The notes: a model not told the origin generated them from the letters alone. Counted from the first letter of the stretch, positions 12,647-56,129 are shown. The stretch: DNA of 64,000 nt from an uncultured Chloroflexia bacterium (GCA_963751345.1 CAVVUS010000038.1:32001-96000); one strand, 5' to 3'. Translations and numbers: made by a program.

Positions 12647-12650
12647 AGGA

Positions 12651-12748
12651 GTGGGGGGCCGGGGCGAGCAGAGGGGCCCCTCTGCTGCCCCGGCCCTCTG
12701 CTCTTTCGCTCTTCCGTTCCGCCGCTCCCCTGCTGTTCTGCTTTTTCC
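12651..12748. repeat. Degenerate 8-bp tandem repeat with a purine-rich inverted arm (hairpin)
   Basis: Octamers from 12677: CCCCTCTG CTGCCCCG GCCCTCTG CTCTTTCG CTCTTCCG TTCCGCCG CTCCCCTG CTGTTCTG. Upstream GGGCCGGGGCGAGCAGAGGGG pairs with the first units. Confidence 0.6.
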
Positions 12749-12759
12749 TGTACTCCCTG

Positions 12760-22745: not shown

Positions 22746-22825
22746 TATCTCCTCCGTATATGCCGGTTATGTACTACCTACTACGCGGCAACTGTGCGGA
22801 GGTTGCAGGCCGCTTCCGCGATTCG

Positions 22826-25220
22826 TCAGTCCTCCGTTCGAGGAACCTGTGGCTCGGGGAGTTCGCAGCTAAGCTCCACACCCTCGGGGTGGAGGGCCAG
22901 GAACACTTTCTCACCGGACAGGGGCAAGTCTGAGAACCGAACACCTGTTGCGGCGTAGAGGGCGTTTGCGATGGCCGGTGCTGTTTGGACCATCACATGC
23001 TCGCCTACCCCACGAGCGCCCCAGGGGCCGTCGTCGAGGGGCGTCTCGACGATGTCGCCGTGGATTTCACGCGGCGCGTCCATAGCGGTGGCGATCTTAT
23101 AGTCGACAAAGCTGGCGTTGATCGCGCGCCCCGCTGCATCGAACCGCAGTCCCTCAAACGCGGAACTCATCCCGTGGACGGCGCCGCCCTCGATCTGGGT
23201 CAGGACCAAGTCCGGGTTGATGGCCTTTCCGACGTCATACGCACTGGCGATCTTCAGGATGTCGATGGCGCCCGTCTCAGTGTCGACCTCCAAGTCCACC
23301 GCCTGGGCACCCACCGTATAGTGCACCACGGCGCGGGTCCCCTGCCCGGTCTCGGGGTCAAGCCCCGTGACGTAGGTCGGCATGAACTTCCCCGATCCTA
23401 CGACGGGTCCACCCTGCCAACCCTCGAACCCCTCGTTGGGCAGGCCGTAGATGACCATATGATTGAGGGGCTGCTCTCTCTCGGTGCGATAGGAGACGAC
23501 GACGCCATCCTTGATGTCGAGATCGTCGGGGTCCTCGTCCCAGTACTCGCGCTACGATGTCGAGTATCTTGACGCGGGCATCCTCCGCGGCAGCCTTGAC
23601 CGCGTTGCCCATCGACCACGTGAGCCGACTTGCGACTGTTTGCCACTCATATGGGCTGTACTTCGTGTCCACGGGGTTGGCCGAGACCCGGACCCAGGCG
23701 TAGGGAACGCCCAGGGCTTCTGCGGCGATCTGGGCTGCGACCGTGAACGCCCCCTGCCCGATCTCCTGGCCTCCGACGTAGACGTTGACCGTGGCGTCCT
23801 CGTTGAAGCGGACAATGGCCGAGCTGCCGGGGTTCGGCGGCATCGCGGGCGCTTTCCACATGATGGCGATCCCTCTGCCGCGCTTCTTGGTCGGGCTCGA
23901 GGGTCTGGGACTGTCCTCCCAGCCGATGGCCTGTGTGACCCTGTCAATGCAGGTGGGCAGGTCTACCTGCGGCATTGCCATCCCGGTGAGGATCGTGTCG
24001 CCCGTGCGCACGCAATTCCGGCGCCGGAAATCGGCGGGGTCCATGCCGATCCTCGTCGCGAGCTGATCCATGATCTGCTCGATGCCCCAGTGAATCTCGG
24101 GCATGCCGAATCCGCGCATCGCGCTGCCGATGGGATGGTTGGTGTAAACGCAGAGAGAATCACCTTTGACATTGGGGACGTCATAGGGGCCGGTGCAAGA
24201 GTAACCCGCAGCACGGGCGATGTTGACGCCATAGTCGTTGTAGGCGCCACCGCCGAAGTAGTAGGCCACTTCCATTGCGAGGAGACTGCCTTCAGCGTCA
24301 CATCCAATCTTGTACATCGCCACGAGGCTCTGACGGACATTGGTGGCGACGAACTCCTCCTCACGCGTCATCCGCACCTTGACCGGGCGCCCCTTCACCG
24401 CTCGCGCCAGCAGGGCGACGTTGGCCTCGATGGAGATGCCGGCCTTGCCCCCGAAACCGCCGCCGACGTAAGGCGATATCACGCGGACGTCGCCATGGGG
24501 AATGCCGAGGCTTTGGGCCAGTAGGTCGCGCTGTGCGAACGGCGACTGCGAAGCTGCCCAGACGGTGAGCTCATCAGAAGGGTCCCATCGGGCGATGGCC
24601 ACGTGGGTCTCGATCGGGGCGTGCTGGATCTGGGGTAAGGTGTACGTTCCCTCGACGATGGCAGCGCAGCGGGGCCAGGCCTCGTCCACGTCCCCCTTCC
24701 GGAGCTTGAAGTGCTCCGAGACATTGGTGCCGGGCACAGGGAAGATGAAGTTGACGACTTCGTAATCACCAAGGTCGGGATGGATCAGGGGGGCATCCGG
24801 CTGCGCGGCCTCGTAGGGATCGAAGACCGGCGGCAGCGGCTCGTAGTCCACGTGCACGAGTGCCGCGGCGCGCTCGGCAATCTCCTCGCTGACCGCGACA
24901 ACGCCGGCGACCGACTCTCCCACGTACCTCACACGGTCGTAAGCAAAGATGAAGCGATCTTTGAGATAGAGGCCCAGGCGGGTGGGGTTGTCCTGCCCGG
25001 TCACCACCGCCTTGACGCCGGGGAGCGCACGGGCCTGGCTAATATCGATGTTCTTGATCAGGCCGTGGGCGACGGGGCTGTGGATGATCTTGCCGTAGAG
25101 CAGGCCAGGCCCAAACGCCATGTCGTCCACGAACCTGGCGGAGCCTGTCACTTTGTCAACGGCGTCGACGCGCCGCACGCTTTGGCCGACAGGGCCACCT
25201 GTTTGCTTGGTGGGCATCAC
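22826..25220 (-). CDS. Xanthine dehydrogenase-family molybdopterin-binding (large) subunit, frameshifted near 23550
   Basis: RVDAVDKVTG, QHAPIETH, VGGGFGGK, AMRGFG, EIGQG, QTVASR, DVGKAINP, QIEGG and GARGVGE (catalytic Glu). Confidence 0.92.
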
Positions 25221-25240
25221 GCCATCCTCCTCTCAGCCGG

Positions 25241-25711
25241 TCAGGACAGCTCCGAGGCAGCCTGGACCGCCTCAATGATCCGCAAATAGCCCGTGCAACG
25301 ACACAGGTTGCCGACCAGCGCGGTGCGGATCTCGTCTTCGGTCGGATGGGGAACACGATCGAGGAGCGCCTTCGCAGACATGAGCATGCCAGGGGTGCAG
25401 AAACCGCATTGGATGGCATTGTGCTCGATGAAGGCTTCCTGGAGCGGGTGTAGGCTGCCGCCCGCACTGAGGCCCTCCACAGTCTCGATCTCAGCGCCAT
25501 CGGCCTCCGGCGCAAGTACCATACACGAGTTGACAGGCAGTCCGTTCACGATGACCGTGCAGGCGCCGCACTCTCCATTCTCGCAGCCCCTCTTGGGACT
25601 GGTGATGCCGAGCGACTCTCGAAGCACTTCCAGCAAGGTCTGGTTTGACCTGACGGCAACGGTGTAGGGGTCGCCATTGACCGTGATCGAGATCTCATGT
25701 AGCATCGGCAA
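25241..25711 (-). CDS. Xanthine dehydrogenase-family 2Fe-2S subunit
   Basis: GCENGECGACTV...NSC, QCGFCTPG and GNLCRCTGY. Confidence 0.95.
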   Translation of the reverse strand: MPMLHEISITVNGDPYTVAVRSNQTLLEVLRESLGITSPKRGCENGECGACTVIVNGLPVNSCMVLAPEADGAEIETVEGLSAGGSLHPLQEAFIEHNAIQCGFCTPGMLMSAKALLDRVPHPTEDEIRTALVGNLCRCTGYLRIIEAVQAASELS

Positions 25712-25717
25712 CTCCTT

Positions 25718-25775
25718 CGTTTGAGCGTTTCAACGTTGACGCGTTGGGACGTGCTAACGTGTCAACGTGGAAACG
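25718..25775. repeat. Degenerate 8-bp periodic repeat (CGT-N5) forming a hairpin
   Basis: CGT occurs at 25718, 25726, 25734, 25742, 25750, 25758 and 25766, an exact 8-bp period. ACGTTGACGCGTT pairs with AACGTGTCAACGT. Confidence 0.75.
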
Positions 25776-26643
25776 ATCCTCTTGATGGCCCGGCGGCTGA
25801 GGGTAATGACCATCGCCTGGCGGTACTCGAGCCCGGATCGGATATCGGAGATCGGACAGCAGCAGCCATAGGCCGAGGCGGCGGCACGGTCGATGGCCGT
25901 CATCGTCGAGGCTGTGTTGCAGGATGGCCTCCGACTCGGTCGATCGCAGCGGCGTAGGCCCGACGGCACCGAGGGCGAGGCGCCAAGCATAGGTGCCATC
26001 CGTCTGGTGCTGCCATCACGGCGACACTTACGATGGACAGATCGCCCGCCTTGCGCCTGCTCAGCTTCTCGTGGTAGCTAAGCGCTCCGGCGGGAGGCGT
26101 GGGGATCATCAGCCCTGCGACAAGCTCGCCACGACGCAGGGCGTTGTGCCGCGGCCCGACGAAGAAGTGGGAGACCGGCAACGAACGGTCTCCCTCTGGT
26201 CCCCGGATCAGCACCATAGCCTCGAGGACGTAGAGCGCGGGCGCGGTGTCGGCGGCGGGCGAGGCAGTGCAGATATTCCCCCCGATCGTCGCGCGGTTCC
26301 TGACTTGTTCGTTGCCCACCGAGGCCGCTGCCTGTGCCAGAAGCTCCCAGCGGCTCCTTACGATCTCGGACCTTGCCAGCTCATTCATGCTGACGGCAGC
26401 GCCGACGCGCAGACAGGTCGACGGAGCGTTGCCACAACCGGGTCCGCCGTCAACACACAATAGGTCGTGCATGCCGGGCAGGCCCTTGATATCGACCACG
26501 ACGTCGGGCGCCAGACGACCATCGCGGATGAGTGGGATCACGTCGGTGGTGCCGGCGACGGGCACCACGATTCTGCCCGGTTGGGCAAGAAGCTCGAAGG
26601 CTTCCTCGAAGCTCGTCGGTCGGTGGTAGTCAAATGGCTGCAT
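25754..26643 (-). CDS. Xanthine dehydrogenase-family FAD-binding subunit, frameshifted near 25900-26000
   Basis: MQPFDYHRPTS, VAGTTD, QVRNRATIGGNICTASPAAD and C-terminal PISDIRSGLEYR. Confidence 0.9.
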
Positions 26644-26703
26644 CGCGCTCGCCTCCTGCCCCGCTGGAGACCGGACCGCGGTCCGGTCTCCATCAGGTAC
26701 GAC

Positions 26704-28045
26704 TTACTCTGTCGCGACGTTTCCGGGTGGAAAGAGGACGAAAATCAGGTTAAGCAGTATGCCGACGACCGCACCGGTAGCGATAGCGGGGAGCCCGTCC
26801 GGGAAGATACCGGGGACCGTGATCGCGATGAATCCGCCTCCCAGGATCTGCCCGCCGATCGCGATGATCGTCACGACGGCACCGACGGCCAGTTGGCGAG
26901 GATCAAAGAGGTTCACCTTCTCTGACTGGATCAGCGCGATACCTTGCATTCCGATCACGCCGAAGAGGTAGATGGCGAGACCCCCGGTGACCGCGGTCGG
27001 GATCGTGTTCACCATAGCCGTGAGCTTGCCGATGAAGCCAAGGAGTATGGCGATCGCCGCGGCCATCGAGGAGTGCGGGGCCGGAGTAGTTGCGAGTGAT
27101 GGCCATCAGGGAGTTGTTCTCGCCGTAGTTTGTCCCAGCCACGCCGCCGAAGAGCCCGTTGATGAAGTCGCCCAGGCCGTCCAGTACCAGGTTCTTGCCG
27201 ATGTGCTGGCTCAGCTCGTAGCGCTTCTTCCCCAGGTTATCGGCCAGGGTGTCGACGTAGAGGCTGATCTGGTAGAGGTGCGCGGTCGACTCCGGGATGG
27301 TTGCGATGGCGATAACTGCGATGGCAGCCACCGACTCCCACGCCCTGGGATCCCCGAACGCGGGTAGGGTGAACCTCGGGATCGCGAAGAAGCTGGCGGC
27401 TCCGACCGACGTCAGGTCCACCAGGCCGAAGGGGATGCTCACGAGGTAACCAAAGACCGCGCCCAAGAGAATCGGCAAGAGCCCGATGAAGCCTCTGCCC
27501 TGCAGATAGACCGAGAAGACGATCGTGGCCAACAGGGTCAGAATGGCGACGATCCAGTTGGCGGACGCCATATCCAGAGCAGAGCCCCCCAGCGTGACGC
27601 CGATGACCAACGCAACGGACCCGGTCAGCACAGGCGGGAGAACCTTGTCCAGGAACGCCTTGCCCGCCCAGACGATGATGAAGCCGACCACGATGTTGGC
27701 CAGGCCGGTGGCTACGATACCGACCTGCGCGAGGCGCACGGCCTCGCCGGCGTATTGGCCGAACTGGGCGTGCGTGAGTGTGAGCGTCGCGGCGATGTAG
27801 CTGAATGATGAGCCGTAGTAGAGTGGGATGAACTTGCCGATCCACACGTACGAGAGCACCAGTGCTACGGCGGTCGCCACGCCGGATACCGTCAGGACGG
27901 TGCCGACATCAAAACCTACAAGTAGTGCAACGAGAACGGTCGCGGGGAACATCGTCAGCACGTGCTGGAAACCGAGCAGCACGAGCTGGCCCACCGGGGG
28001 GGCGTCGTTAGGAAGGAACCCCCACACCTTGCGCTTCTCTGCCAT
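26704..28045 (-). CDS. NCS2 nucleobase:cation symporter, UraA/PyrP-like, frameshifted near 27065
   Basis: GFQHVLTMF (QH motif), YGSSFSYI, PPVLTG, IPESTAH and the NAT signature TNYGENNSLMAITRNYS. Confidence 0.9.
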
Positions 28046-28183
28046 TTGAGACCTCCTACTTGGCTACGGATAATGGTTGGCTGGAAGGGAAAAACGATGA
28101 CTGCCGCCAAGGTTATGCCACAGATTGCCTATTGATCACCCCCTTTCTCGATGTCTCGCCGCTGCCCCAGAAGCCTCGCAGAG

Positions 28184-28534
28184 CTAGAGCGGCTCATACT
28201 TGAGCCCGAAGACCGGCTCGCCGGACACATAGCGTACCGGCTCCCAACTGGGCTTCAGCGCGATGCCGGTATGGATACCTTCGAGGGACTCAGCCTTGAT
28301 CTGTCCCATGGCCTTGATCCCGTTGTCGAACTGCGCAATGCCGATGATCAGGAATCGCTCGTCGAACCCCCAGGGAAGGTTGAAGATCTGCGTGTAGGCC
28401 AGCAGCGTCGCGTTGCCCTCAGGTGCGATCTCCTCGAAGTCCCTATGGTGGCACTCCAGGCATCGTTCGTGTCGTGGGTAGTGGATGTGCCCGCAGTGCT
28501 TACACTTGTACCCCGTGATCTTGATCTCACTCAT
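28184..28534 (-). CDS. DUF35 Zn-ribbon/OB-fold protein (thiolase partner)
   Basis: CKHCG...CLECH zinc ribbon followed by an OB-fold (AYTQI). It lies immediately downstream of the thiolase gene. Confidence 0.85.
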   Translation of the reverse strand: MSEIKITGYKCKHCGHIHYPRHERCLECHHRDFEEIAPEGNATLLAYTQIFNLPWGFDERFLIIGIAQFDNGIKAMGQIKAESLEGIHTGIALKPSWEPVRYVSGEPVFGLKYEPL

Positions 28535-28535
28535 C

Positions 28536-29762
28536 TCACACCTCTTCCCGGGACGCCCGCTTCAGCACCGTGGCCAGGACGTTGTTGCCGAACCCGCCGA
28601 AGTTCACGGCCAGACCCATCCTGAGCATCCTTGACCTGGCGGTCTGCCGGAAGCTCGTGTCGAAGCTGCCAGGTCAGGTCCACCACCTGTGCGACGCCGG
28701 TGGCGCCTACGGGATGCCCGCGTGCCTTGAGGCCGCCGGACACATTGATAGGGATCTTGCCCCCAAGCCGGGTCTCGCCTCCGAGGGCAGCCTTCCCACC
28801 CTCGCCCTTGGCGAAGAAGCCAACGTGCTCGCTCTCCGCGATTTCCAGGATGGTGAAGGCGTCGTGGAGTTCGGCCACGTCGACGTCCTCCGGTCTCGCC
28901 TTCGCCCGAGCAAATGCCTGTCGAGCGGCCAAGGTGACGGCCTTCAGGTCGGTTGGGTCATCACGCTCCTGTAGCGTGTGGGTGTCGGTCGCCTGTCCGA
29001 TCCCCGCGACAACCACGGGTATCCTCTTCGTCAGCTCGGCTGCCATAGCCAGCGGGCAAAGGAGCACGGCGGCAGCCCCGTCACTGACCGGGCATGCATC
29101 ATAGAGGTGCAGCGGGTCAGCGACCGTGCGGGTTGTTGACGACCGAGTGTGGGCTGTCCAGGATGCCCTCCTTGGTGATGAGCATCTCCACGTGTGCGTA
29201 GGGGTTGAGTGCGCCCATCTCCTGGTTCTTGATGGCGACGGCCACGAGCATCTCTCGGGTCAGCCCGTACCTCTCCATGTAGAGCCGGGTGAACATCCCC
29301 GCCATCCCCGGCAAAGTGATGCCGTAGGGGTACTCGACGCGAGGGTGGGTCAGCGTGGCCACGAAGTCGGTGGCACGCCAGCCCGTGACCTCGCGCATCT
29401 TCTCCCCCCCGGCAACGAGAACCACGTCGGCGTAACCCGAGGCGACAGCCTGCACCCCATTCTTGATCGGCGGAGGCCCCCGAGGCCGGCCCGTTCTCGA
29501 CGAGGTCGGCTGCCGCGGGTAACAGCGCCAGGCGGTCCACCAGCGCGCTCGCAATGCCCGTCTGGTGTTGGAGGATTCCGCCCCCCATATTGGCCACGTA
29601 GACCGCATCGACCGCGGCCTTGTTCCCCAGAGCCGCATCGTCCAGGGCCTTGAGCGAGGCATACGCCAGCATATCCACCAGGGTATCCTGGTCGCGGCGA
29701 CCAAAGGGGATCATGCCCACGCCGATGATCGCGACCTCCCTGCCGTACGTCGTGTCTGCCAT
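28536..29762 (-). CDS. SCP2/archaeal-type thiolase-fold protein lacking the nucleophilic Cys, about 3 frameshifts
   Basis: VAIIGVGM, VENGPASG (canonical VExxCASG), GGEKM, NPYAH, ELHDAF, SGGLKARGHPVGATG and C-terminal VNFGGFGNN. Assembled from ORFs 29031..29762, 29117..29704 and 28531..29067. Confidence 0.85.
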
Positions 29763-29765
29763 GCC

Positions 29766-30457
29766 TTACCTCCCCTTCAGCCCTGCGATTTTCTCGCGGA
29801 TCATCGCCTCATCGGCGATGACGATCTCTTGCTCCGCAAGGGCCAGCAGATCCTCGGGAACGGGCCGGTCACCGACTACGAGCCGATCCTTGCTGGCGAA
29901 GTAGAGGTCGCGGGTCAGCCGGTACGATGGCGCGCCACCCAGTTCGTGCGGAATGGTCGTCGGCTCCAGGCCATATTCGGTCATCCAGCGGCGGAACCCG
30001 ATTGGGCTCTCGGCGACGATCAGTACCTCATCCTGGCCCAGATACTCGATGTGATGCTCCATCTTCGCCGCGAAGAGGTGCGCGCCGATGCGCAGCCCGC
30101 GATCGATGGCCAGCGTGTGCAGGCTCATACCCGTCCCCTGGGTGTACATCCGGCTGTTGACCAGCCCGGCCAATATGCCGTCGACCTGTCCGATCAGACA
30201 GAACTCGTTCTGGACGCGGTAGTACTGCCACGCGAGAAGCTCGGCGTAGACGCGGGCGCCCACGACATTGTAGTAGTCCCGGTCGATGAAGAGCGTCGGA
30301 TGCACGACCTTCAGCAGCGTCGGCACGTCCTCGCGCTGTCACCTCGCGCACGACCATACGCTTCCCATTGGCCAGCGTGATGACCTTGGGAGGGTAGGGC
30401 GGTTGCGGGATACTCCGGCGGTCGGAGGATGGCCTCCAATTCCATGTCAACTGCCAT
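29766..30457 (-). CDS. Uncharacterised GNAT-fold-like protein, frameshifted near 30340-30420
   Basis: ATG at 30457 follows AAGGAG. Pieces include KVITLANGKRMVVRE, LIGQVDGILAGLVNSR and SLHTLAIDRGLRIGAHLF (resembles GNAT motif A, R-G-x-x-I-G). Confidence 0.55.
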
Positions 30458-30461
30458 CGTT

Positions 30462-31341
30462 CTAGCTCCTTGCTCTTACCTGGCGGTTGAGGCTCTCAAC
30501 GTGTGCCGGGTTGTAGGCGTCACCGAACTTGGTCTTGGGCAGGCCGGCCTTCGTCGCCATCAGCGGCGTCGTAGCGATCGTCCTCCAGGAAGGCGACACA
30601 TCGGCCGATACTCGACTCCCCGTCGACGAAGCGCCACGGGAAGAACCCGATCTGCACGCGTTGGTTGACCAGCAGGTCGATCTCCCCGCCGATACACTCG
30701 GCGTGGATGATCCCCTCGGGGAACATCTCGATGTGCATCAACTGATACTTCGTGTCATCGAAGACGTCGGCCAGACCGGCGCCGTACTTCGCCTGGAAGT
30801 GTGCCTCTGCCTCACGCGCCTGGCGCGGCATCCAGTCGCGGATGATGGTGTTCATCGGATGGTCCGCGCTGCCGCAGTCGACGCCGATCCAGCGCAGCTT
30901 CTTCTCCTTGGCCCAGATCGCGAACTCACGGTCGGGTCCGGGGTGCTGGACCATGTAGCGGATCTCGTTGGCGGTCGGCATGTCCCACCCGAAGTGGTGG
31001 AAGCCCGTGTGGATGATCAGGATGTCGCCCTCCTTCACCTCCACCCGATCCTCGATCATCTTCGACGTGTAGATGTCGTAATCTGCGACGACGTCCGAGA
31101 GATCGACGACCGCGGCCTCGTGGACCAGGTAGTCCATCTGAAGGTCGGCGATGTCCTTGCCGGCGGTGAAGAAGTGGATCTCACCGTCGAGATGCGTTCC
31201 CAGGTGGTTGGAGTGGGTCACCACCTGACCGTTGGCGCCGTTGGGCGCCAGTCGCTTGAAGTACTTCACCTGGAGTGGCTCATAGGTCGGCCACGGCGGG
31301 GTACCAATGCCCAGCGGAATAGTAAGGTCCAGTAGCTTCAT
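30462..31341 (-). CDS. Cyclase family (kynurenine formamidase/isatin hydrolase-like) metal-dependent amidohydrolase, frameshift near C-terminus
   Basis: LLDLTIPL, HSNHLGTHLDG (HxGTHxD), ILIIHTG, IGVDCGSADH, HAE and GESSIGR. Confidence 0.9.
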
Positions 31342-31354
31342 CTCTCACACCCTC

Positions 31355-32773
31355 CTATCGAGTTCTTGGGTCTATGCAGACAGCCTTCAGTGCATCGAAC
31401 GCCTGTTCGAAGCATTCCCGTGGAGCGCGGACGAGTCCGGCCCCCACCATTCCGATGCCCGGTTGCTTGTGGGCGATGCCCGTGTTGATGAAGGGCAGGA
31501 TGCCTGTAGCCATCACCTTGCGCACGTCAATGCCCAGCGGCGTTCCGCGGAAGTCGAGCACGGGCACGGTGAACGACTCGTGCTCTCCAGCCGTGATCTC
31601 GTACATTTCGCTCGTGACACTCAACGCTAGGCTGGCGGTGCCGCCGACAAAGCGCACGATCGCGGGAGCTGCCGCCATCGCAAACCCTCCGAGACCGCCC
31701 GTCTCGGTGATGCTGGAGTCCCCAATGTCGGGGTTGGCATCCTCTGCTGTGAAACCCGGGAGCCACATACCATCGACGACCGGCGCGGGCGCGGTGAACC
31801 ACCGGTCGGGAAGGCCGGCAACGCGTATCCCGAAGTCGGTTCCGTTCCGCGCCATCACGGTGACCAGCGAGCTGCCCTCAACCGTCTCTGCCGGCTCCAG
31901 CATCGCCTTGACCGTAGCCATGGAGAGGTTGAGGAAGAAGTGATCGTTGCTGTCGATGAACCGGAGCACACGGCTGGCGATGGCCTTGGTTGTTACCCCG
32001 ATCAGGGTCGGCGCGATCTGGCGTATCAGGAGCGACGTGGCGGCCCGGTTGCGGTTGTGGACTTCGTCGCCCATATGCAGGGCCTGTGCGATGATGCTAC
32101 GAAGGTCGATGGGGCCGGTCTTGGCGATCGTCCGTCGCAGCGTGGGATAGAGGTCGGACTCCATCCACTTCAGGTGGTCGAGGACGTCATCGCCATAGGC
32201 CCCGTAGCGGAGCACGCGGCCCAGGCCCTCATTCTGAGTCGCGTAGGCCCTGTTGCCGAAGGTCTCGTTCTCGACGATGAACACGGGCATTGAGGGCGAG
32301 ACGATGCCGGCCATGGGCCCTACCGTGTGGTGGTGATGACAGGGGTCGAATGCGATGGCGCCGGACGCGGCGAGGTCGGCGGCGGCCTCGTACGACTCCG
32401 CCCAGCCCTCATAGACGATCGCCCCCATCACGGCGCCGCGCTGGGGCCCACACATCCGATCCCAGGTGATAGGGGGCCCGGCGTGAAGGATCATGCGTTC
32501 CTCCATACCGGGGATCGTGTTCTTGGCGACGCCCATGCCCACCAACAGCGGGCGGCTGCTGCGGATCCTATCGATGGCCTCTGCGTTGGCCGCATCGATG
32601 TCGACGCCCTGCCTGGTGGTGGTCAATGGCACAAATCCCGCTAGCGGTGGACGCCAGTCGACGTGGATCACCTCCGCACTCTGAGCCCTGAGACTCTCGC
32701 TGAAGTCCTCCAGGCCGACGTTGATGGCCCTAATCGGTTGGTCGAACAGGTCGTGGATTGCCATAGTCTTCAC
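31355..32773 (-). CDS. DUF1116 family protein (YlbE/YahG; AllG-like)
   Basis: VDWRPP, ILHAGPP, PCHHH..VGPMAG, NEGLG..LRYG, MGDEVHNRN, NDHFFLN, RNGTDFGI, DIGDSSITE and INTGIAH. Confidence 0.92.
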   Translation of the reverse strand: MKTMAIHDLFDQPIRAINVGLEDFSESLRAQSAEVIHVDWRPPLAGFVPLTTTRQGVDIDAANAEAIDRIRSSRPLLVGMGVAKNTIPGMEERMILHAGPPITWDRMCGPQRGAVMGAIVYEGWAESYEAAADLAASGAIAFDPCHHHHTVGPMAGIVSPSMPVFIVENETFGNRAYATQNEGLGRVLRYGAYGDDVLDHLKWMESDLYPTLRRTIAKTGPIDLRSIIAQALHMGDEVHNRNRAATSLLIRQIAPTLIGVTTKAIASRVLRFIDSNDHFFLNLSMATVKAMLEPAETVEGSSLVTVMARNGTDFGIRVAGLPDRWFTAPAPVVDGMWLPGFTAEDANPDIGDSSITETGGLGGFAMAAAPAIVRFVGGTASLALSVTSEMYEITAGEHESFTVPVLDFRGTPLGIDVRKVMATGILPFINTGIAHKQPGIGMVGAGLVRAPRECFEQAFDALKAVCIDPRTR

Positions 32774-32793
32774 TCCTTCCCGACAGCGGGCCG

Positions 32794-34379
32794 CTAAGCC
32801 AGGACGTAACCCACGAGGCGTGCTGCCGCGGCGTTTGTCGGTAGAACGATGACGCCGGCAGACCGCAGCACCTCTTCCTGTGCCGTGGCATTCTGCGGGT
32901 CCCCATCGGTGCCGCAGACGTGGGCGACAAAGATGATCGACCTACCTGCTTCCGCCAGGAACGACTGGGCCTCCCGAATCGCCTCCACCGCGGCGCCGGC
33001 GGGATCGGGATGCACTCCGTAGCCCAGGACGACGTCAAGATAAATGACGGCAGTTTCGGGATCGCGCGCCTCCTGCACGATGCGCCGGTTGCGGAGCGAG
33101 GGATCAAGCATCGGGTGCAGTCTCCCGACCGTGAACTCGTCCTCGCCAAGATCGATTGCCGTGTGACCCTGACTGAGCGTTCGAGTCCGGCAGCCTTGCG
33201 CTCTCGTCCACCGGCGCGTTGGACAGGATCTGGCCCTTGCCCAGCATCTTGCCCAAGATCAGCTGCGTCTCATAGCAGAAAGTGCCACCACTGAAGAGAC
33301 CCCTGAAATAGCGCTGGCGGCGATGCAGCGAGGAGCGGAGGTCCGGAGCGCGGGCCCGTAAGCCTCCTGTCGCGATCGCGAAGTTCCGTCAACGCCGCCT
33401 CCGGGTCGGAGCCCACCGCCAGTTCGGCAGCAATCACGGCGGCTTTCTCCAGCGTTGAGGCGGCGATGGCCCCGGCTTGCCTGATCGGCTTCTTCTTACC
33501 GCCCAGGAAGCAGACGACCGTGGGTTTCTCACTCTCTTTCAACTGCCCGAGCACCAACTCGGCGACCTCTGGTGCGGGAGGTTTGGACACGAGGACGAGC
33601 ACCCGGGTATCGTCGTCGGCCTGCAGTGCCTTGAGCCCCTCCAGCATCATCGTGCCACCGACGGCAGCCGAGAGGTCCCTTCCGCCGGTGCCGATCGCCT
33701 GGGTGATGCCGACACCACGCCGCGCCAATTCACAGGTCACAGCCTGGAGTCCGGTGCCGCTGGCTGCGACGATGCCGATACCTCCGGGAGTTGGGGGTGT
33801 CCTGAGAACCTGATTGGCAAAGCCAAGGGCCACCCCGTTGATAATGGCTGTGCCCGCATCGGGGCCCATCACGAGCAGGCCCCGGTCGCGACCGACCTGT
33901 TTCAGGCTTACCTCATCCTGGAGCGATACGTTGTCGCTGAAGAGGAAGACGTGTAGATTGTGGTCGAGCGCCTCGCGGGCAACACCCGCGGCGTACTGGC
34001 CCGCGACCGATATCAGCGCGATGTTGGCGTGTTCCAGTTGCCTGACGGCCCGATCGATCGTCTTGGGTGGGATTGCCCGGCCTTCTGTGCCCGGCTTCGG
34101 CGCCCGCGACGCCTTGAGGGCGCCAGAGGCATGTTCCAGGGCCGCATCGGCTGAGGCTGCAGACGCGGCCCGCACAGAAATGACGAGGTCGTCGGCCGAT
34201 GCAGCCGCCGCTTCCGGGGTCAGCAGGTCCGCATTGGTAAGGATGCCCTTGTTCGCCGCCGTTCCCATAACGACGGCGGCGTCCGTGATCCCTTCGAGGG
34301 TCAGCAGTACCTGGGCAATCTCGAGAAGCGTCATGGAGTCATAGTATTCGCCGCGTTTCACGTCGGTCTTGGTGATCAA
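32794..34379 (-). CDS. fdrA: FdrA family acyl-CoA synthetase-like protein (YahF/AllF-like), frameshifts near 33170-33360
   Basis: YYDSMTL, VMGTAANK, LISVAGQYA, FSDNV, MGPDAGT, ASGTGLQ, GTGGRDL, LVSKPP, GLFSGGTF, DLGEDEFTVGRLHPMLDP, LDVVLGYG and CGTDGDPQ. Confidence 0.92.
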
Positions 34380-35261
34380 AGTGACCTCCTCACAGCTTCA
34401 TAGCCACGTATGAATCCGTGGAGCATATCGAACCCCGACGTTGCGCCGTGGGCGAGGACGTCTGTGACAGCTCGCTTCAGATTGCCGTCCGGGCCCAGGC
34501 CCAATGTGTCCAACAATCGGTGCCATCGCTCGTCCGCCAGGCCCTCGCTTGCGGCATAGAGAAAAGCGCGACTCAACGACGTGGTGAGAGGATAGGCTGC
34601 CTGTGTGATAGCACGGCAGAGCGGCTGTCGATGCGGGTGATGTCCGGCCCACATGGCGAGCATGATGCCCGCCAACACGTCGTCCCCCGAGGGTGTCAGG
34701 CCGACGCCAAGCCCTGCCATCCGCCCGGCGGCGCTGGAGATCGCAGCAACGTCGGGTGACCCGCCCGTCGTGGGCCTGCCAAGCGCGGCTACGAGCTGCG
34801 TCAGGGAGGAGTCGAGGGCTTGAGCGGCGGCCCGCGCCTGTCGGTGAGGGGCCGACTGGGGCGCCGTGGTTACGAGTGAGCCTAGCTGTTGGAGAGCGAT
34901 CTCAGAGATGCGGAGATCCTCCCATCGCGGCCGTGGGTCCCAGACGGTCGTTCGTGCGGTGATGGTGAGCGACCAGTGACCGATCCTCAGATCCATCGGT
35001 GTCTTCCACGCGGGGACATCCCTACTCCTCTGGCCTGAGCCAGGATGTGATGGCGGGGGCAGGCGCCGCACCACGATGTGGAAGGGGCCGTTGCCAAGCT
35101 CGGGCTCGACGAGCGCCACGATCTCGTGGCCCGGTCGTGATGTGCCCAAGGCGATGAGGTCCACCGCTCTCCTGAAACGGGCCAGGCGTCTGAGAGCGAC
35201 AATCTCGGAACCAAAGCGGTCGAGAACAGGCGCGCTGATGCTGAGAACCTCTGCGTGGCAT
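34376..35261 (-). CDS. DUF2877 family protein (YlbF/YahE; AllH-like); start uncertain
   Basis: GNGP, GLGVGLTPSGDDVLAG, TTSLSRAFL and HGATSGFDMLHG. The ORF-track extension to 35494 runs through a terminator and structured RNA and is probably non-coding. Confidence 0.85.
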
Positions 35262-35293
35262 AAAACGGGCCACCGATTGGTGATCGGTGGCCC
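35262..35293 (-). terminator. Intrinsic terminator/attenuator directly upstream of the DUF2877 gene
   Basis: Minus strand reads GGGCCACCGAT-CACCA-ATCGGTGGCCC-GTTTTA (11-bp perfect stem plus U-tract). Confidence 0.75.
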
Positions 35294-35602
35294 ATAGGCA
35301 TCACTTGGGGGGGTGGGGAGCGTCGCCGCAACCGGTGGCTTGAGAGCGAGTCCAGGCCCCTGGCTCGCCGTATTCAAGCGACGATCGCTGCGGGCCCCTT
35401 CACTGCGAAGCGTCCCGGTGCGGAACTCCGCCGGGCATTTCCGTTCCCCTGGTTGGGCGTGCGTCTCGTGAAAAGGGCCTCTCTGGAGGGGCACGTGACT
35501 CTCGCTCTCGGGATAGGGAAGCTTGACTCATCACAGGCCGAATGCAGCATCCTGGGGCGGGACCGGGCCTCTTTCCTGGCGGCGCACGATCCGCTGCCCT
35601 GC
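35294..35602 (-). ncRNA. Candidate structured leader RNA/ncRNA of unknown family
   Basis: It lies between a consensus promoter and a terminator. Nested helices: GAGAGCGAG/CTCGCTCTC, GCCCCT/AGGGGC, GGCCCTTTTCAC/GTGAAGGGGCC, CCCGG/CCGGG and GCGGA/TCCGC. Confidence 0.5.
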
Positions 35603-35608
35603 AACGGA

Positions 35609-35673
35609 ATTGTAGTGAGGTGCTAAGTTTTTGTCAAGCCACGGCTTGACGTCGCGCGGCCTCGGGTTACAAT
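35609..35673. promoter_or_regulatory. Divergent sigma70 promoters (catabolic operon leader / plsC)
   Basis: Minus: TTGACA (35637-35632), 17 nt, TACAAT (35614-35609). Plus: TTGACG (35646-35651), 16 nt, TACAAT (35668-35673). Confidence 0.75.
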
Positions 35674-40878: not shown

Positions 40879-42970
40879 TCATACGGGCGCGATGCTTATG
40901 CGCACGTCAACGGCCCAGATGCCGCTACCCTCCGCGCCAACCACCAGGGGGTTGATGTCGACCCCATCTATGTTGGGGAAGTCGATCGCCAACTGACCCA
41001 GACGACGCAGGGCGTCGACGACGCCCTCAATGTCACGTGGCGGCATCCCGCGGATGCCCTGCAGGATCCGTCCGGCTGCCGTTTCCATCACCATGCTGTG
41101 GGCATCGGCAACGCCAATCGGCGCGAGGCGGAAGGCCACGTCCCTCAGGACCTCGACCAGGGTTCCTCCCAGGCCGAACATGAGGACTGGGCCAAACTGG
41201 GGGTCGCGCTGCATCCCCAGGATGACTTCCTGGCCCGCAGGTGCCATGCGCTGGAGCATGGCACGCCGCTCGGCGTGCGGACCGACCAGTTCGGCGAAGA
41301 CCTCTGCGACCGCACCTGCATCCGCCAGATTCAGCCTCACGCCTCCCACATCGGCCTTGTGAATCACGTCTGGCGCGATCACCTTCATCGCCAGCGGGTA
41401 GCCCAGTGAGTCTGCGAGCGCTGTCACCTCATCCGGCGTGGTCGCGATTCCCGACTGTGGCACGCGAATGCCGTATGCCGAGGCGACCAACGCCGATTGC
41501 TGTGCATCCAGAAACCCAGGCCCGGCACCGTCCAGGTGCCGGCTCAGCACCGAGCGGACCCGGTCCCGGTCTACGCCTGCGATGGTCTCAGGCAGTGCCA
41601 CGGGGCGATCCCGAAGGTGGCGATAGGCCAACAAGCTGGCCAGCGCGCGACCGGCCCGGTTGGGGTCCTGGTAGAACGGCACACCCTCGCGGTTGAGCAG
41701 GTCAACCGCCTCCGTGATGCTCTCCCCGCCTACCAGGCAGCAGACGACGGGCTTTGCTGCGCTCTGAGCTGCCATAATGACGTTCCGGGCGACTTCAATG
41801 ACGGGCGTGATGGCTTGAGGGACGAAAACAGCCATCAGCATGTCGACGCTCTCGTCCCTGAGCAGTAGCTCACCCGCGGTCCTGTACATTTCGGCCTGGG
41901 GGCCGCCCAGCATATCGACAGGGTTGCCCAATTGGGCGCCCCTCGGCGTCACCTCCCGGAGCCGTGCCATCGTCTCCGGACTGAGGTCCGCCATCGTCAG
42001 GCCGCAGCGGTCCAGTTCATCGGCCGCCAATGCGGCAGGCCCCCCTGCATTGGTCAGGATGGCGACCCGGTTGCCCAGAGGCAGTGGCTGCGTGGCCAGG
42101 GCCATCGCGACGTCGTTCTGCTCCTGGAGCGATTCGACAACCAGGACGCCTGCGCGGTGGCAGGCCGCGCGATAGGCTTGCTCGTTGCCTGCGAGGGCGC
42201 CGGTGTGCGAGGCGACGGCTCGCGTCCCCGCCGCCGTGAGCCCGGCCTTGAGCATGACCACGGGTTTCTGTCTGATAGACGCCCGCGGCGGCCTCGACGA
42301 AGCGGCGCCCATCGGGAAGGCCCTCGGCATAGACATTGATGACGCGTGTGAAAGGGTCGGACTTCATCATCTCGATCCCGTCGGCAATGTCAACGTCAAG
42401 CTGATTCCCCAGGCTGGCAATGCGGCTGTATCCCACGCCGACACCTCGCGCCCAATCGACCGTTCCACCGGCGATGGCGCCCGAGTGCGAGACAAACCCT
42501 ATGTGGCCCGGCCTGGGCATCGCCGTGATGAAGGTGGTGTCGAGCGGCACGTGCGTGTCCATCACCCCGACGCAGTTCGGACCAATCAGGCGCATGTTGT
42601 AGTCGTCGGCTATCACCTTGAGCTGGCGCTCCAGCTCGACGCCCTCAGGACCGGACTCCCTGAAGCCTCCGCTAATGACGATCACGGTGCGCAATCCCCT
42701 GTCGCCACACTGGCGCAGCGCCTGCGGCACGAGAGGGGCCGGAATCATGATCACGGCTAGCTCAACCGGATCCGGTACGGCCTCAATAGACGGATAGACC
42801 TCTAGACCCAGGATCTCCCCGCCCCGTGGGTTGACGGGATAGATCGGTCCGGGGTAGCCGCACCGCTTGAGGTTCCGGACCACGCCGTGGCTCAGCTTAT
42901 CGGGATCCGAGCTCGCCCCGATGATGGCGACGCCGTCGGGATTGAAGAAGGTCTCCAGGGTGTCGGTCAT
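40879..42970 (-). CDS. Acetate/acyl-CoA ligase (ADP-forming), fused alpha-beta, frameshifted near 42280
   Basis: AIIGAS, YPVNP, GPNCVG, SHSGA, ASHTGALAG (phospho-His), TNAGG, NPVDM, HKADVGGV, DPQFGPV..FGLGG and DINPL. Confidence 0.9.
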
Positions 42971-43050
42971 ATGATTAGCCTCCGTGAGCTAGCCAGCATT
43001 CACAGGGATATGTTAGGTAAGAGGTGGCCTTTGTCCAGGCGCGCACGGGG

Positions 43051-55362: not shown

Positions 55363-55366
<4 letters not shown>
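54131..55366 (-). CDS. MacB-like ABC transporter permease
   Basis: [42 protein letters not shown] and PIDALRYE. Confidence 0.95.
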
Positions 55367-56116
<750 letters not shown>

Positions 56117-56129
56117 CGTTATTGCCCGC

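What the first reader, a model, noticed from the sequence alone, without database searches (positions are those of the whole stretch)
22826..35261. Candidate undescribed anaerobic oxidative pyrimidine (N-heterocycle) catabolic operon
Seen: eleven co-oriented, tightly packed genes, in transcription order DUF2877, fdrA, DUF1116, cyclase-family amidohydrolase, GNAT-like, thiolase-fold, DUF35, NCS2 permease, then XDH-family FAD, 2Fe-2S and Mo subunits. Known: FdrA/YlbE/YlbF act in E. coli anaerobic allantoin use as the oxamate carbamoyltransferase on the acyl-ureide oxalurate. XDH-family enzymes hydroxylate N-heterocycles without O2, including uracil to barbiturate in the oxidative pyrimidine pathway. 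Cyclase-family enzymes hydrolyse cyclic and formyl amides. No allantoinase, allantoate amidohydrolase, ureidoglycolate dehydrogenase, barbiturase or carbamate kinase gene is present in the locus. Inference: uracil/thymine is imported and oxidised to (methyl)barbiturate; the cyclase opens the ring as a non-homologous barbiturase; the FdrA trio cleaves ureidomalonate phosphorolytically or CoA-dependently, conserving energy; and the Cys-less thiolase/DUF35 (and GNAT) process the malonyl product to acetyl/propionyl-CoA. I do not recognise this combination as a described pathway.
Basis: partly seen in the sequence, partly recalled or inferred. Interest (0 to 1): 0.9.

Follow-up and report, generated by a model that had tools for sequence, protein, structure and literature searches.

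The report
Undescribed conserved nucleobase-breakdown gene cluster
This is a real, tightly packed set of eleven genes that recurs across several bacterial phyla and probably lets oxygen-avoiding bacteria break down a uracil-like ring compound by a route nobody has described, although its exact substrate and chemistry are still unproven.

Summary

In this assembly 7 of the 11 genes carry 12 one-base frame changes. Short-read contigs from other runs lack the extra base at 7 of those 12 sites, and dN/dS stays low downstream of them. They are therefore most likely consensus errors, not pseudogenes.

The gene set is co-conserved in at least four gene orders in Chloroflexota, Eisenbacteria, Sumerlaeota, Riflebacteria and others, including the isolate Longilinea arvoryzae.

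New here:
- The orphan has a GNAT fold.
- All 78 thiolase-like orthologues lack both catalytic cysteines.
- Orphan, thiolase-like protein and DUF35 are predicted to form one complex.
- The permease keeps UraA's uracil-binding residues.
- The FdrA trio is 35-49% identical to E. coli oxamate carbamoyltransferase.

My literature searches found no description of this combination.

A uracil-type oxidative pathway is plausible but untested. The individual enzyme assignments remain inference.

The parts
34376..35494 (-). AllH / DUF2877 homologue (third subunit of the oxamate-carbamoyltransferase-type trio). The start codon is uncertain.
   Evidence: Pfam PF11392 AllH, 83 bits. The G002 orthologue is 35% identical over 114 aa to the C-terminus of E. 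coli YlbF/AllH. No frame change.
32794..34379 (-). FdrA / AllF homologue (succinyl-CoA-synthetase-alpha-like). Two one-base frame changes near 33360 and 33178 in this assembly.
   Evidence: CoA_binding hit in the window. The G002 orthologue passes NCBIfam NF004760 FdrA (456 bits against a 433 cut-off) and is 38% identical over 511 aa to E. coli FdrA. Frame changes. Contigs lack the extra base at 33178 and 33360.
31355..32773 (-). AllG / DUF1116 homologue
   Evidence: Pfam PF06545 AllG, 329 bits. 49% identical over 409 aa to E. coli YlbE/AllG. Intact.
30462..31341 (-). Cyclase-family (PF04199) metal-dependent hydrolase. One frame change near 30565.
   Evidence: Pfam Cyclase, 106 bits. The sequence HLGTHLDGEIH is kept and many His/Asp/Glu are conserved in 58 orthologues. 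75-89% identical across phyla. The only solved relative is kynurenine formamidase, 34 bits.
29766..30457 (-). Orphan 229-aa GNAT-fold protein. Two frame changes near 30406 and 30340.
   Evidence: No Pfam or NCBIfam hit. 2867 homologues, all without a functional name. 187 representatives in the 50%-identity library. AF2 model pLDDT 90.4. Foldseek gives GNAT acetyltransferases, E 1e-7, TM 0.43-0.51. Contigs lack the extra base at 30338.
28536..29762 (-). Thiolase-fold protein lacking both catalytic cysteines. Three frame changes near 29468, 29128 and 28624.
   Evidence: Thiolase_N and Thiolase_C_1 hits. Best solved relatives are 7yvy and the archaeal thiolase 6esq/6et9. ENGPASG and ELHDAF are found in 78 of 78 orthologues. 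Contigs lack the extra base at all three sites.
28184..28534 (-). DUF35 protein (zinc ribbon plus OB fold)
   Evidence: The G002 orthologue hits zf-ChsH2 PF12172 and weakly BbsA. Four Cys are invariant in 21 orthologues. Intact.
26704..28045 (-). NCS2 nucleobase permease of the uracil (UraA) type. One frame change near 27067.
   Evidence: Xan_ur_permease. Best NCBIfam model is uracil permease, 219 bits, below the 477 cut-off. UraA structures score 156 bits against 33 for UapA, and the residues aligned with UraA E241, H245, G289, E290 and F73 are conserved.
25754..26643 (-). FAD subunit of the XDH-family enzyme. Two frame changes near 26000 and 25899.
   Evidence: FAD_binding_5; CO_deh_flav_C in the G002 orthologue. 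No Cys is conserved at 95% or more in 43 orthologues, so there is no 4Fe-4S loop. Contigs lack the extra base at 25897/25899.
25241..25711 (-). 2Fe-2S subunit
   Evidence: Fer2_2 and Fer2. Intact.
22826..25220 (-). Molybdopterin subunit of the XDH-family enzyme. One frame change near 23546.
   Evidence: Ald_Xan_dh_C, MoCoBD_1 and MoCoBD_2 split over two ORFs; one 796-aa protein in G002. No NCBIfam equivalog reached: XdhA 545 against 780, 4-HBCR alpha 526 against 994. The nearest solved structure is 1rm6, 345 bits.
35609..35637 (-). Promoter-like site upstream of AllH (TTGACA-17-TACAAT)
   Evidence: 11 of 12 consensus positions match. This is a consensus match only.

Best explanation
The locus is one operon-like catabolic module for a small ureide-containing N-heterocycle, most likely uracil or thymine or a close analogue, used by anaerobic Chloroflexota and a scattering of other phyla.

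- The eleven families and their order.
- Their co-conservation across phyla in several gene orders.
- The GNAT fold of the orphan protein.
- Loss of both thiolase cysteines in every orthologue examined.
- Homology of the FdrA/AllG/AllH trio to the E. coli oxamate carbamoyltransferase.
- UraA-type substrate-binding residues in the permease.
- Absence of the 4Fe-4S loop in the FAD subunit.

Inferred chemistry:
1. The base is imported by NCS2. In other lineages a Bmp-type ABC transporter or another transporter takes this role.
2. The Mo/FAD/2Fe-2S enzyme hydroxylates it with water (uracil to barbiturate).
3. The cyclase-family metallohydrolase opens the ring to an N-acyl-urea (ureidomalonate).
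4. The AllFGH-type enzyme cleaves the acyl-urea with phosphate. By analogy with oxalurate this gives carbamoyl phosphate, which the unlinked carbamate kinase turns into ATP. This avoids urea in an organism in which no urease was found.
5. A GNAT, Cys-less thiolase-fold and DUF35 complex carries out a non-thiolytic step on the C3 (malonyl-type) remainder. That step may be decarboxylation or acyl transfer to CoA, ending in acetyl or propionyl units.

The frame interruptions in this window are assembly errors, so the module is probably intact in the organism.
For: Families and order.

Co-conservation:
- 80 loci were fetched with the orphan protein.
- Orphan, thiolase-like and DUF35 genes are adjacent in all loci that extend far enough (thiolase in 78 of 80, DUF35 in 76 of 80).
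- Among the 28 loci of at least 20 kb: cyclase 25, FdrA 25, AllG 23, AllH 18, FAD 22, 2Fe-2S 24, Mo 22; all nine core families in 18.
- No other family occurs in more than 8 of the 80 loci.

Ureide chemistry: AllG 49%, FdrA 38% and AllH 35% identity to the E. coli proteins, which as a purified complex interconvert oxalurate + Pi and oxamate + carbamoyl phosphate (abstract and Discussion of PMC11326118).

Pyrimidine lead:
- UraA-type permease with conserved binding residues.
- Bmp/PnrA-type ABC transporter in a variant locus.
- A separate ygeW/ygeX/carbamate-kinase/XDH cluster for purines in the same genome.
- No urease alpha found in a genome that is 93% complete.
- No allantoinase above the cut-off.

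Complex: ipSAE 0.81 (runs 0.77, 0.82, 0.81) against a best control of 0.00. The mark was reached by 58 of 80 solved complexes and 2 of 110 mismatched pairs. The runs agree in at least 90% of contacts and the partner's pLDDT is at least 85. These counts hold only roughly, because I supplied my own alignments and three chains.

Intactness:
- Contigs 95-99% identical to the window lack the extra base at 25897/25899, 28624, 29128, 29468, 30338, 33178 and 33360.
- dN/dS against G002 is 0.05-0.28 in segments downstream of the frame changes, the same as upstream.
- G002 has all eleven genes intact.
Against: - No direct evidence ties the Mo enzyme to uracil. It reaches no equivalog cut-off, and its closest solved relative acts on an aroyl-CoA.
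- The permease is below the uracil-permease cut-off (219 bits against 477) and is present in only 8 of the 28 long loci. Other loci carry TRAP or DMT-like transporters.
- No carbamate kinase lies in the cluster here or in any of the 80 loci's conserved families.
- Longilinea instead has acetate kinase and an ADP-forming acetyl-CoA synthetase beside the cluster. This would fit an acyl-phosphate product other than carbamoyl phosphate.
- The genome also has a dihydropyrimidinase-type gene above its cut-off, so a reductive pyrimidine route may already exist.
- The role of the most conserved part, the GNAT/thiolase-like/DUF35 triad, is a guess.
- In two long loci (L090, L074) the triad occurs without the cyclase or the Mo enzyme within 10 kb.
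- At site 33178 one run (X3) has depth 2.4 with no omission listed.
- Five of the twelve coding frame-change sites have no listed row.
Confidence: 0.5

Rival explanations
1. Purine or ureide variant. The Mo enzyme oxidises a purine (hypoxanthine or xanthine). The cyclase hydrolyses a purine-derived ring (for example a parabanate- or allantoin-like compound) to oxalurate. The trio is a true oxamate carbamoyltransferase, as in E. coli.
For: The trio is homologous to the characterised oxalurate enzyme at 35-49% identity. NCBIfam's best model for the Mo and FAD subunits is E. coli-type XdhA/XdhB. In nitrifiers, allFGHK sits beside genes for purine-derived ureides (passages of PMC12625717).
Against: The permease matches UraA, not the xanthine/urate carrier UapA (156 against 33 bits), and has Glu at the UraA E290 position. 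No allantoinase is above the cut-off and no allantoin genes are in the locus. The genome has a separate purine-type cluster with its own XDH-like enzyme and carbamate kinase. The XdhA and XdhB cut-offs are not reached. This reading gives the triad no role.
Confidence: 0.15
2. CoA-thioester route for a heteroaromatic or aromatic acid. FdrA works as an acyl-CoA synthetase. The Mo enzyme acts on the acyl-CoA, like 4-hydroxybenzoyl-CoA reductase or furoyl-CoA dehydrogenase. The GNAT, thiolase-like and DUF35 proteins process CoA esters, and the cyclase opens the ring.
For: 4-Hydroxybenzoyl-CoA reductase alpha is by far the nearest solved relative of the Mo subunit: 345 bits against 256 for the next. 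FdrA carries CoA_binding and Ligase_CoA domains. GNAT, thiolase-fold and DUF35 proteins are typical acyl-CoA enzymes. Acetate kinase and an ADP-forming acetyl-CoA synthetase flank the Longilinea cluster.
Against: The FAD subunit has no conserved cysteines, so the 4Fe-4S loop that I recall as defining 4-HBCR is missing. FdrA always travels with AllG, and usually AllH, as in the carbamoyltransferase. The transporters are nucleobase or nucleoside types in many loci. The thiolase-like protein cannot form an acyl-enzyme through the usual cysteine.
Confidence: 0.15
3. Decaying relic. The frame changes are real, and in this organism the cluster is a set of recent pseudogenes.
For: There are 12 frame changes in 7 genes. 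One-base changes are about four times denser per kb than in the rest of the window: 15 in 12.7 kb against 16 in 51.3 kb.
Against: Every listed contig that lacks a base does so at one of these sites. There are no nonsense codons or large deletions. dN/dS stays low downstream of the shifts. The changes are almost all +1 insertions, and the same kind occurs elsewhere in the window.
Confidence: 0.05

Closest known systems
E. coli allFGH(K): oxamate carbamoyltransferase of anaerobic allantoin degradation (Kim and Kim 2024, PMC11326118)
   Same: Three adjacent genes of the same three families. 38%, 49% and 35% identity. Anaerobic ureide catabolism.
   Different: No carbamate kinase in the operon. 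No allB/C/D/E neighbours. Here the trio is embedded with a Mo hydroxylase, a cyclase-family hydrolase and a GNAT/thiolase-like/DUF35 triad. The substrate is unknown.
Oxidative pyrimidine pathway of Rhodococcus and relatives (uracil to barbiturate to ureidomalonate to urea + malonate; Soong et al., as cited in PMC3758960)
   Same: The proposed first intermediates would be the same. An XDH-family three-subunit enzyme would fit the first step (its subunit make-up is recalled, not checked).
   Different: No AtzD/barbiturase-family gene was found in the genome, although that search's control rang nowhere, so it is weak evidence. Ring opening would be by an unrelated cyclase-family enzyme. Ureide cleavage would be by phosphorolysis instead of hydrolysis to urea. 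The hosts are anaerobes.
Archaeal thiolase/HMG-CoA synthase/DUF35 complex (6esq, 6et9) and the PhlA/PhlC/PhlB acyltransferase (5m3k)
   Same: A thiolase-fold protein (244 and 107 bits) together with a zinc-ribbon DUF35 protein and a third catalytic partner. A complex is predicted.
   Different: The partner is a GNAT-fold orphan, not a condensing enzyme. Both catalytic cysteines are lost in 78 of 78 orthologues. A 7-residue insertion (204-210), absent from 7yvy in the printed alignment, forms the predicted interface.
Ltp2-ChsH2(DUF35) steroid side-chain aldolase (6ok1)
   Same: Thiolase fold with a DUF35 partner. Described as working without the thiolase cysteines (recalled, not checked here).
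   Different: Only 101 bits. No GNAT partner there. Different pathway context.
4-Hydroxybenzoyl-CoA reductase (1rm6)
   Same: Nearest solved relative of the Mo subunit (345 bits). Three-subunit enzyme of anaerobes.
   Different: The FAD subunit lacks conserved cysteines for the extra 4Fe-4S cluster. The NCBIfam cut-off is missed by far, 526 against 994.
E. coli ygeW-ygeX-yqeA-xdhD type anaerobic urate cluster (PMC12507026)
   Same: Anaerobic N-heterocycle catabolism with an XDH-family enzyme, carbamoyl transfer and ATP formation through carbamate kinase.
   Different: That system is present separately in this genome on contig C18. It shares no family with the studied cluster other than the XDH-type subunits.

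Membership tests
Oxamate carbamoyltransferase AllF-AllG-AllH | Three adjacent genes of the FdrA, DUF1116 (AllG) and DUF2877 (AllH) families | tested here: met
   Pfam and NCBIfam hits. FdrA is above the NF004760 cut-off (456 against 433).
Oxamate carbamoyltransferase AllF-AllG-AllH | Sequence homology to the purified E. coli subunits | tested here: met
   38% over 511 aa, 49% over 409 aa, 35% over 114 aa.
Oxamate carbamoyltransferase AllF-AllG-AllH | Operon partner carbamate kinase (allK) and neighbouring oxalurate-forming genes allB/C/D/E | tested here: not met
   Carbamate kinase is only on another contig. No allantoinase is above the cut-off. The flanks are unrelated.
Oxamate carbamoyltransferase AllF-AllG-AllH | Activity: oxalurate + Pi to oxamate + carbamoyl phosphate | not testable with these tools
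   Needs an enzyme assay.
XDH-family molybdenum hydroxylase | Mo subunit (hammerhead plus two MoCo-binding domains), FAD subunit and 2Fe-2S subunit | tested here: met
Xanthine dehydrogenase proper (XdhA/XdhB, PucD) | Score above the curated equivalog cut-off | tested here: not met
   XdhA 545 against 780; pucD 412 against 784; XdhB 174 against 310.
4-Hydroxybenzoyl-CoA reductase | Cysteine loop for a 4Fe-4S cluster in the FAD subunit (feature recalled), and the equivalog cut-off | tested here: not met
   No Cys is conserved at 95% or more in 43 FAD-subunit orthologues. Alpha subunit 526 against 994, beta 136 against 405.
Thiolase (acetyl-CoA C-acyltransferase) | Nucleophilic Cys in the CASG motif and acid/base Cys in HDCF (SCP2/archaeal type) | tested here: not met
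   PASG and HDAF in the alignment to 7yvy and 6esq, and in 78 of 78 orthologues.
Thiolase-fold/DUF35 multi-protein enzymes | DUF35 with a four-Cys zinc ribbon encoded next to the thiolase-fold gene, and physical association with a third partner | tested here: inconclusive
   Four invariant Cys. Adjacency in 76 of 80 loci. The model supports binding of the GNAT partner, 0.81 against a best control of 0.00; the mark was reached by 58 of 80 solved complexes and 2 of 110 mismatched pairs. There is no experiment.
GNAT superfamily | GNAT fold | tested here: met
   AF2 pLDDT 90.4. Foldseek probability 1.00 to many GNATs, TM 0.43-0.51. Atlas neighbours carry Acetyltransf_1.
GNAT superfamily | Sequence-profile match and the canonical Q/R-x-x-G-x-G/A CoA loop (motif recalled) | tested here: not met
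   No Pfam or NCBIfam hit. The loop reads R-G-L-R-I-G-A, which does not fit the spacing.
Cyclase family PF04199 (kynurenine formamidase / isatin hydrolase type) | Profile match and the His/Asp metal motif HxGTHxD...H | tested here: met
   106 bits. HLGTHLDGEIH. These His and Asp are conserved in 58 orthologues. The arylformamidase equivalog is not reached, 40 against 223.
NCS2 uracil permease (UraA type) | Residues aligned with UraA F73, E241, H245, G289 and E290 (their roles are recalled) | tested here: met
   Alignment to 5xls and 3qe7.
NCS2 uracil permease (UraA type) | Equivalog cut-off | tested here: not met
   219 bits against 477.
Classical oxidative pyrimidine pathway | Barbiturase of the AtzD/TrzD family | tested here: inconclusive
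   No PF09663 match in G000, but the control rang in none of the 14 genomes.

The most novel reading that the evidence does not exclude
This would be the first anaerobic, oxidative pyrimidine fermentation pathway.

A Mo hydroxylase and a cyclase-family 'barbiturase analogue' would make an N-acyl-urea. Two new enzyme types would then dismantle it:
- an AllFGH-type phosphorylase that conserves the ureide bond as an acyl phosphate, either carbamoyl phosphate or, after decarboxylation to acetylurea or propionylurea, acetyl or propionyl phosphate;
- a GNAT, Cys-less thiolase-fold and DUF35 complex that is a previously unknown non-thiolytic decarboxylase or acyl-transfer machine.

Together they would give substrate-level ATP from uracil or thymine without producing urea.
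Probability: 0.3. Interest if true: 0.85.

Novelty: new variant of a known kind. Interest (0 to 1): 0.68.

Why it matters
Known anaerobic pyrimidine breakdown is reductive. The oxidative route is known from only a few aerobes, and it uses unrelated ring-opening and ureide-cleaving enzymes.

A conserved ten- to eleven-gene module in abundant but poorly cultured anaerobes (Anaerolineae, Eisenbacteria and others) would:
- add a nucleobase-recycling route to sediment, soil and digester nitrogen and carbon cycling;
- give a second physiological substrate to the recently discovered three-subunit carbamoyltransferase;
- assign a first function to an orphan GNAT family and to a conserved cysteine-free thiolase-fold/DUF35 complex.

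The module is directly testable because a cultured isolate, Longilinea arvoryzae KOME-1, carries it.

Tried and rejected
- Selenocysteine or an in-frame stop in FdrA: rejected. The break is a frame change, not a TGA read-through.
- Homopolymer errors as the cause of the frame changes: the inserted bases are mostly not in homopolymer runs. I left the error mechanism open.
- Greedy ORF calling in GC-rich loci gave wrong genes, for example a 982-aa 'thiolase' in L095. I replaced it with tblastn labels and ORF clustering.
- Neighbours of the triad in the Spirochaetota locus L090 gave no informative Pfam hits.
- Eisenbacteria locus L095 has TRAP, beta-lactamase-domain and split M20 genes upstream. 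They are found in only 1-2 of the 80 loci, so I did not count them as part of the module.
- Carbamate kinase, acetate kinase, CN_hydrolase and carboxyltransferase as conserved members: rejected. Each is in at most 5 of the 80 loci.
- The barbiturase family search was uninformative because its control was silent.
- Sequencing runs: only small shares of the stretch were held (at most 0.15 of the sampled words). I draw no habitat claim from them. Parts of the stretch without contig cover say nothing.
- I did not build a phylogeny of the Mo subunit against characterised uracil, nicotinate and xanthine enzymes. The tools give no sequences of the characterised enzymes as usable records, and, as far as I recall, no uracil dehydrogenase gene has been identified.
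- Supplements of PMC11326118 and PMC12625717 (synteny figures, docking tables) could not be seen. They might show related gene neighbourhoods.

Full report
**Observation**

The window is 63% G+C and corresponds to G000:C38:32001-96000 in a 5.4-Mb assembly of 49 contigs. Between 22826 and 35494, all on the minus strand, Pfam finds the following, in transcription order:
- AllH (DUF2877)
- an FdrA-like CoA-binding protein
- AllG (DUF1116)
- a cyclase-family protein
- a protein with no family hit
- thiolase N- and C-terminal pieces
- an NCS2 permease
- FAD_binding_5
- 2Fe-2S
- a molybdopterin subunit split over two ORFs

The flanks are unrelated. Downstream lie a LiaF-like protein, DeoC and an FGGY kinase. 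Upstream, transcribed divergently, lie an acyltransferase and an MFS transporter. Start and stop coordinates were fixed. Spacers run from -4 to 42 nt, apart from one of 138 nt before the permease. A strong sigma-70-like match lies upstream of AllH (a consensus match only).

**Frame interruptions**

Several window ORFs were too short. The closest relative, G002, belongs to the same genus, is 86% identical in DNA and is colinear over all 64 kb. It has eleven uninterrupted genes.

Laying its proteins on the window shows 12 frame changes inside coding sequence: Mo 1, FAD 2, NCS2 1, thiolase 3, GNAT 2, cyclase 1, FdrA 2. One more lies just upstream of the FAD start. AllG, 2Fe-2S, DUF35 and AllH have none.

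The changes are nearly all single inserted bases, mostly outside homopolymer runs. The same kind occurs elsewhere in the window, for example at 42276, 55755 and 57482, but less densely: 15 single-position events in the cluster against 16 in the other 51 kb.

Two tests argue against real pseudogenes.
- First, contigs of four public runs were laid on 22800-35500. These were coded soil and salt-marsh metagenomes, and most laid pieces were 95-99% identical to the window. They lack one base at 25897/25899, 28624, 29128, 29468, 30338, 30460/30463, 31364, 33178 and 33360. Seven of these places are coding frame-change sites. Five coding sites (23546, 26000, 27067, 30406, 30565) have no listed row, and at 33178 one run shows depth without an omission.
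- Second, dN/dS against G002 is 0.05-0.28 in segments downstream of the shifts, no higher than upstream.

I conclude that the interruptions are consensus errors of this assembly, or at most private and very recent.

**Is it a unit?**

The protein without a family is 229 aa in G002. It has 2867 homologues at E <= 0.001, none with a functional name. It has only 187 representatives in the library clustered at 50% identity. It is thus a compact orphan family.

Using it as a probe, 80 loci were fetched from species-representative genomes. They include Anaerolineae, Thermoflexia, Caldilineaceae, Eisenbacteria, Sumerlaeota, Riflebacteria, Fibrobacteraceae, Spirochaetota, Armatimonadota, Acidobacteria, one record labelled archaeon, and the isolate Longilinea arvoryzae KOME-1.

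tblastn with the eleven G002 proteins, plus an AllH profile, gave these results:
- The orphan, thiolase-like and DUF35 genes are always adjacent where the contig allows (thiolase in 78 of 80 loci, DUF35 in 76 of 80).
- Among the 28 loci of at least 20 kb: cyclase 25, FdrA 25, AllG 23, AllH 18, FAD 22, 2Fe-2S 24, Mo 22, NCS2 8.
- All nine core families are present in 18 of those 28. Several of the misses lie at the edge of the 10-kb flank.

At least four different gene orders occur. Clustering all unlabelled ORFs found no further family in more than 8 of the 80 loci. One of the two families that reached 8 loci turned out to be a divergent AllH.

The distribution is patchy. A high-identity cyclase orthologue is found in 15 of 40 relatives. 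The orphan is found in 3 of 301 genomes sampled evenly over the phylum, G000 included. This is the pattern of an accessory catabolic module that moves between lineages.

**What the parts are**

- *FdrA, AllG, AllH.* FdrA passes NCBIfam's FdrA model. The three proteins are 38%, 49% and 35% identical to E. coli FdrA, YlbE and YlbF. The purified E. coli complex interconverts oxalurate + Pi and oxamate + carbamoyl phosphate (abstract and Discussion of PMC11326118).
- *Cyclase.* It keeps the His/Asp metal motif and is unusually conserved, at 75-89% identity between phyla. It is only remotely like any solved enzyme: kynurenine formamidase, 34 bits.
- *Orphan protein.* It folds with high confidence (pLDDT 90.4) into a GNAT fold (consistent). 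Invariant positions in the 30-row alignment A2 are G93, G97, S111, H113, G124, K131 and G153.
- *Thiolase-fold protein.* It is closest to archaeal-type thiolases (7yvy 277 bits, 6esq 244 bits). It reads PASG for CASG and HDAF for HDCF, and does so in 78 of 78 orthologues. It cannot be a conventional thiolase.
- *DUF35.* It has an invariant four-cysteine ribbon.
- *Predicted complex.* A three-chain prediction places the GNAT protein on the thiolase-like protein. The score is 0.81 (runs 0.77, 0.82, 0.81) against a best control of 0.00. The mark was reached by 58 of 80 solved complexes and 2 of 110 mismatched pairs. These counts hold only roughly, because I used my own alignments and three chains. 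The runs agree in at least 90% of contacts and the partner's pLDDT is at least 85. The contacts involve thiolase residues 189-210, which include a 7-residue insertion absent from 7yvy in the printed alignment, and GNAT residues 26-31, 120-129 and 190-195. The model supports binding; it does not show it.
- *Permease.* It matches E. coli UraA (156 bits) far better than UapA (33 bits). It keeps the residues aligned with UraA F73, E241, H245, G289 and E290. That these residues bind uracil is recalled, not checked. It is below NCBIfam's uracil-permease cut-off.
- *Mo subunit.* It reaches no equivalog cut-off. Its nearest solved relative is 4-hydroxybenzoyl-CoA reductase alpha (345 bits). However, the FAD subunit has no conserved cysteine in 43 orthologues, so the extra 4Fe-4S cluster of that reductase (recalled) is absent.

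**Genome context**

- G000 has a carbamate kinase above its cut-off, but on contig C18. There it sits with a GntR regulator, two OTCase-fold carbamoyltransferases, a PLP enzyme, DUF6909 and another FAD/2Fe-2S/Mo set. This resembles the ygeW/ygeX/yqeA/xdhD cluster assigned to anaerobic urate breakdown (passage of PMC12507026).
- No allantoinase is above its cut-off.
- No urease alpha was found in this genome, which is 93% complete.
- A dihydropyrimidinase-type gene is present.
- Variant loci carry other neighbours. A Bmp/PnrA-type ABC transporter is in 3 loci, with its permeases in 5. A CN_hydrolase is in 5 loci, and a carboxyltransferase in 2.
- In Longilinea an acetate kinase and an ADP-forming acetyl-CoA synthetase flank the cluster.

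**Mechanism**

The shown facts fit a catabolic module for a small ureide-bearing heterocycle, taken up by nucleobase-type carriers.

A Mo enzyme hydroxylates uracil or thymine with water, giving (methyl)barbiturate. A metallohydrolase opens the ring to ureidomalonate. This is the homologue of oxalurate that is longer by one methylene group. The AllFGH-type enzyme then cleaves it with phosphate.

Each of those assignments is inference from context.

The GNAT, Cys-less thiolase-fold and DUF35 triad is the most conserved part, and it needs a role. GNAT-fold malonyl-thioester decarboxylases exist (recalled), so decarboxylation or CoA transfer of the malonyl-type remainder is my best guess.

An alternative order is equally open. 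Ureidomalonate could first be decarboxylated to acetylurea, which phosphorolysis would then split into acetyl phosphate and urea. That order would fit the acetate kinase next to the Longilinea cluster.

The rivals are a purine/oxalurate variant and a heteroaroyl-CoA route. Both are weakened by the permease type, by the separate purine cluster, by the missing 4Fe-4S loop, and by the constant company of AllG with FdrA. Neither is excluded.

**Novelty**

Five full-text searches found no paper describing this gene combination or an anaerobic oxidative pyrimidine route. They covered the trio's names, barbiturase/ureidomalonase/oxidative pyrimidine, DUF35 + FdrA + cyclase + XDH, barbiturate + uracil + anaerobic + molybdenum, and new pyrimidine pathways in anaerobes. 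The oxidative pathway is described there only as the aerobic barbiturase and ureidomalonase route (passages of PMC3758960). Subscription-only papers and supplements were not searchable.

I rate this a new variant of a known kind: a nucleobase or ureide catabolic cluster built partly from known families, containing what looks like a new multi-protein enzyme.

**Verdict**

The cluster is a real, conserved and undescribed unit. A pyrimidine substrate is favoured but unproven, and the individual enzyme roles are open.
- Interest is 0.68.

Noticed in passing
G000:C18:221000-240999 (L103): A second N-heterocycle cluster in the same genome. It encodes a GntR regulator, two OTCase-fold carbamoyltransferases, carbamate kinase (366.5 bits, above the cut-off), a PLP enzyme, a fused FAD+2Fe-2S protein, DUF6909 and a Mo subunit that is also split over two ORFs. 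It resembles the ygeW/ygeX/yqeA/xdhD urate cluster.
   Followed up: partly
window 1195, 3557, 4397, 4983, 7677, 17091, 38354, 42276, 55755, 57482: Single-base insertions relative to the colinear relative G002 also occur outside the cluster. Some split ORFs, for example 40882-42363 / 42020-42988 and 55366-55857 / 55499-56179. Indel quality is therefore a problem across this assembly, and it is about four times denser inside the cluster.
   Followed up: partly
L011:9547-10770 (thiolase-like orthologue), residue 223: A cysteine (C223, in DACPVSDG) is invariant in 17 orthologues, where the two aligned solved thiolases have Ser. It might be a relocated catalytic residue.
   Followed up: no
L052 (Longilinea arvoryzae) 697-1896 and 12359-14599: An acetate kinase lies directly upstream of the cluster and an ADP-forming acetyl-CoA synthetase lies downstream. 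This hints at an acetyl-CoA or acetyl phosphate end product. It was seen in this locus only.
   Followed up: partly
L045-L048, L054: A variant of the cluster in which a CN_hydrolase follows DUF35. Two or three extra cyclase paralogues (35-43% identity) follow AllG in L045-L047. A carboxyltransferase (L045, L047) and a Bmp-type ABC transporter (L045) lie upstream.
   Followed up: partly
window 30462-31341 and its orthologues: The cyclase is 75-89% identical between phyla, whereas the Mo, FdrA and DUF35 proteins of the same loci are 27-63% identical. That is unusually strong constraint.
   Followed up: no
window 35609-35673: Back-to-back promoter-like sites lie in the 186-nt divergent spacer between AllH and the acyltransferase gene.
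   Followed up: no
window 25754-26643 (FAD subunit), about residues 60-80: The window's FAD subunit has a short Cys-rich stretch (LLCVDGGPGCGNAPSTCL). None of its cysteines is conserved at 95% or more among 43 orthologues.
   Followed up: partly
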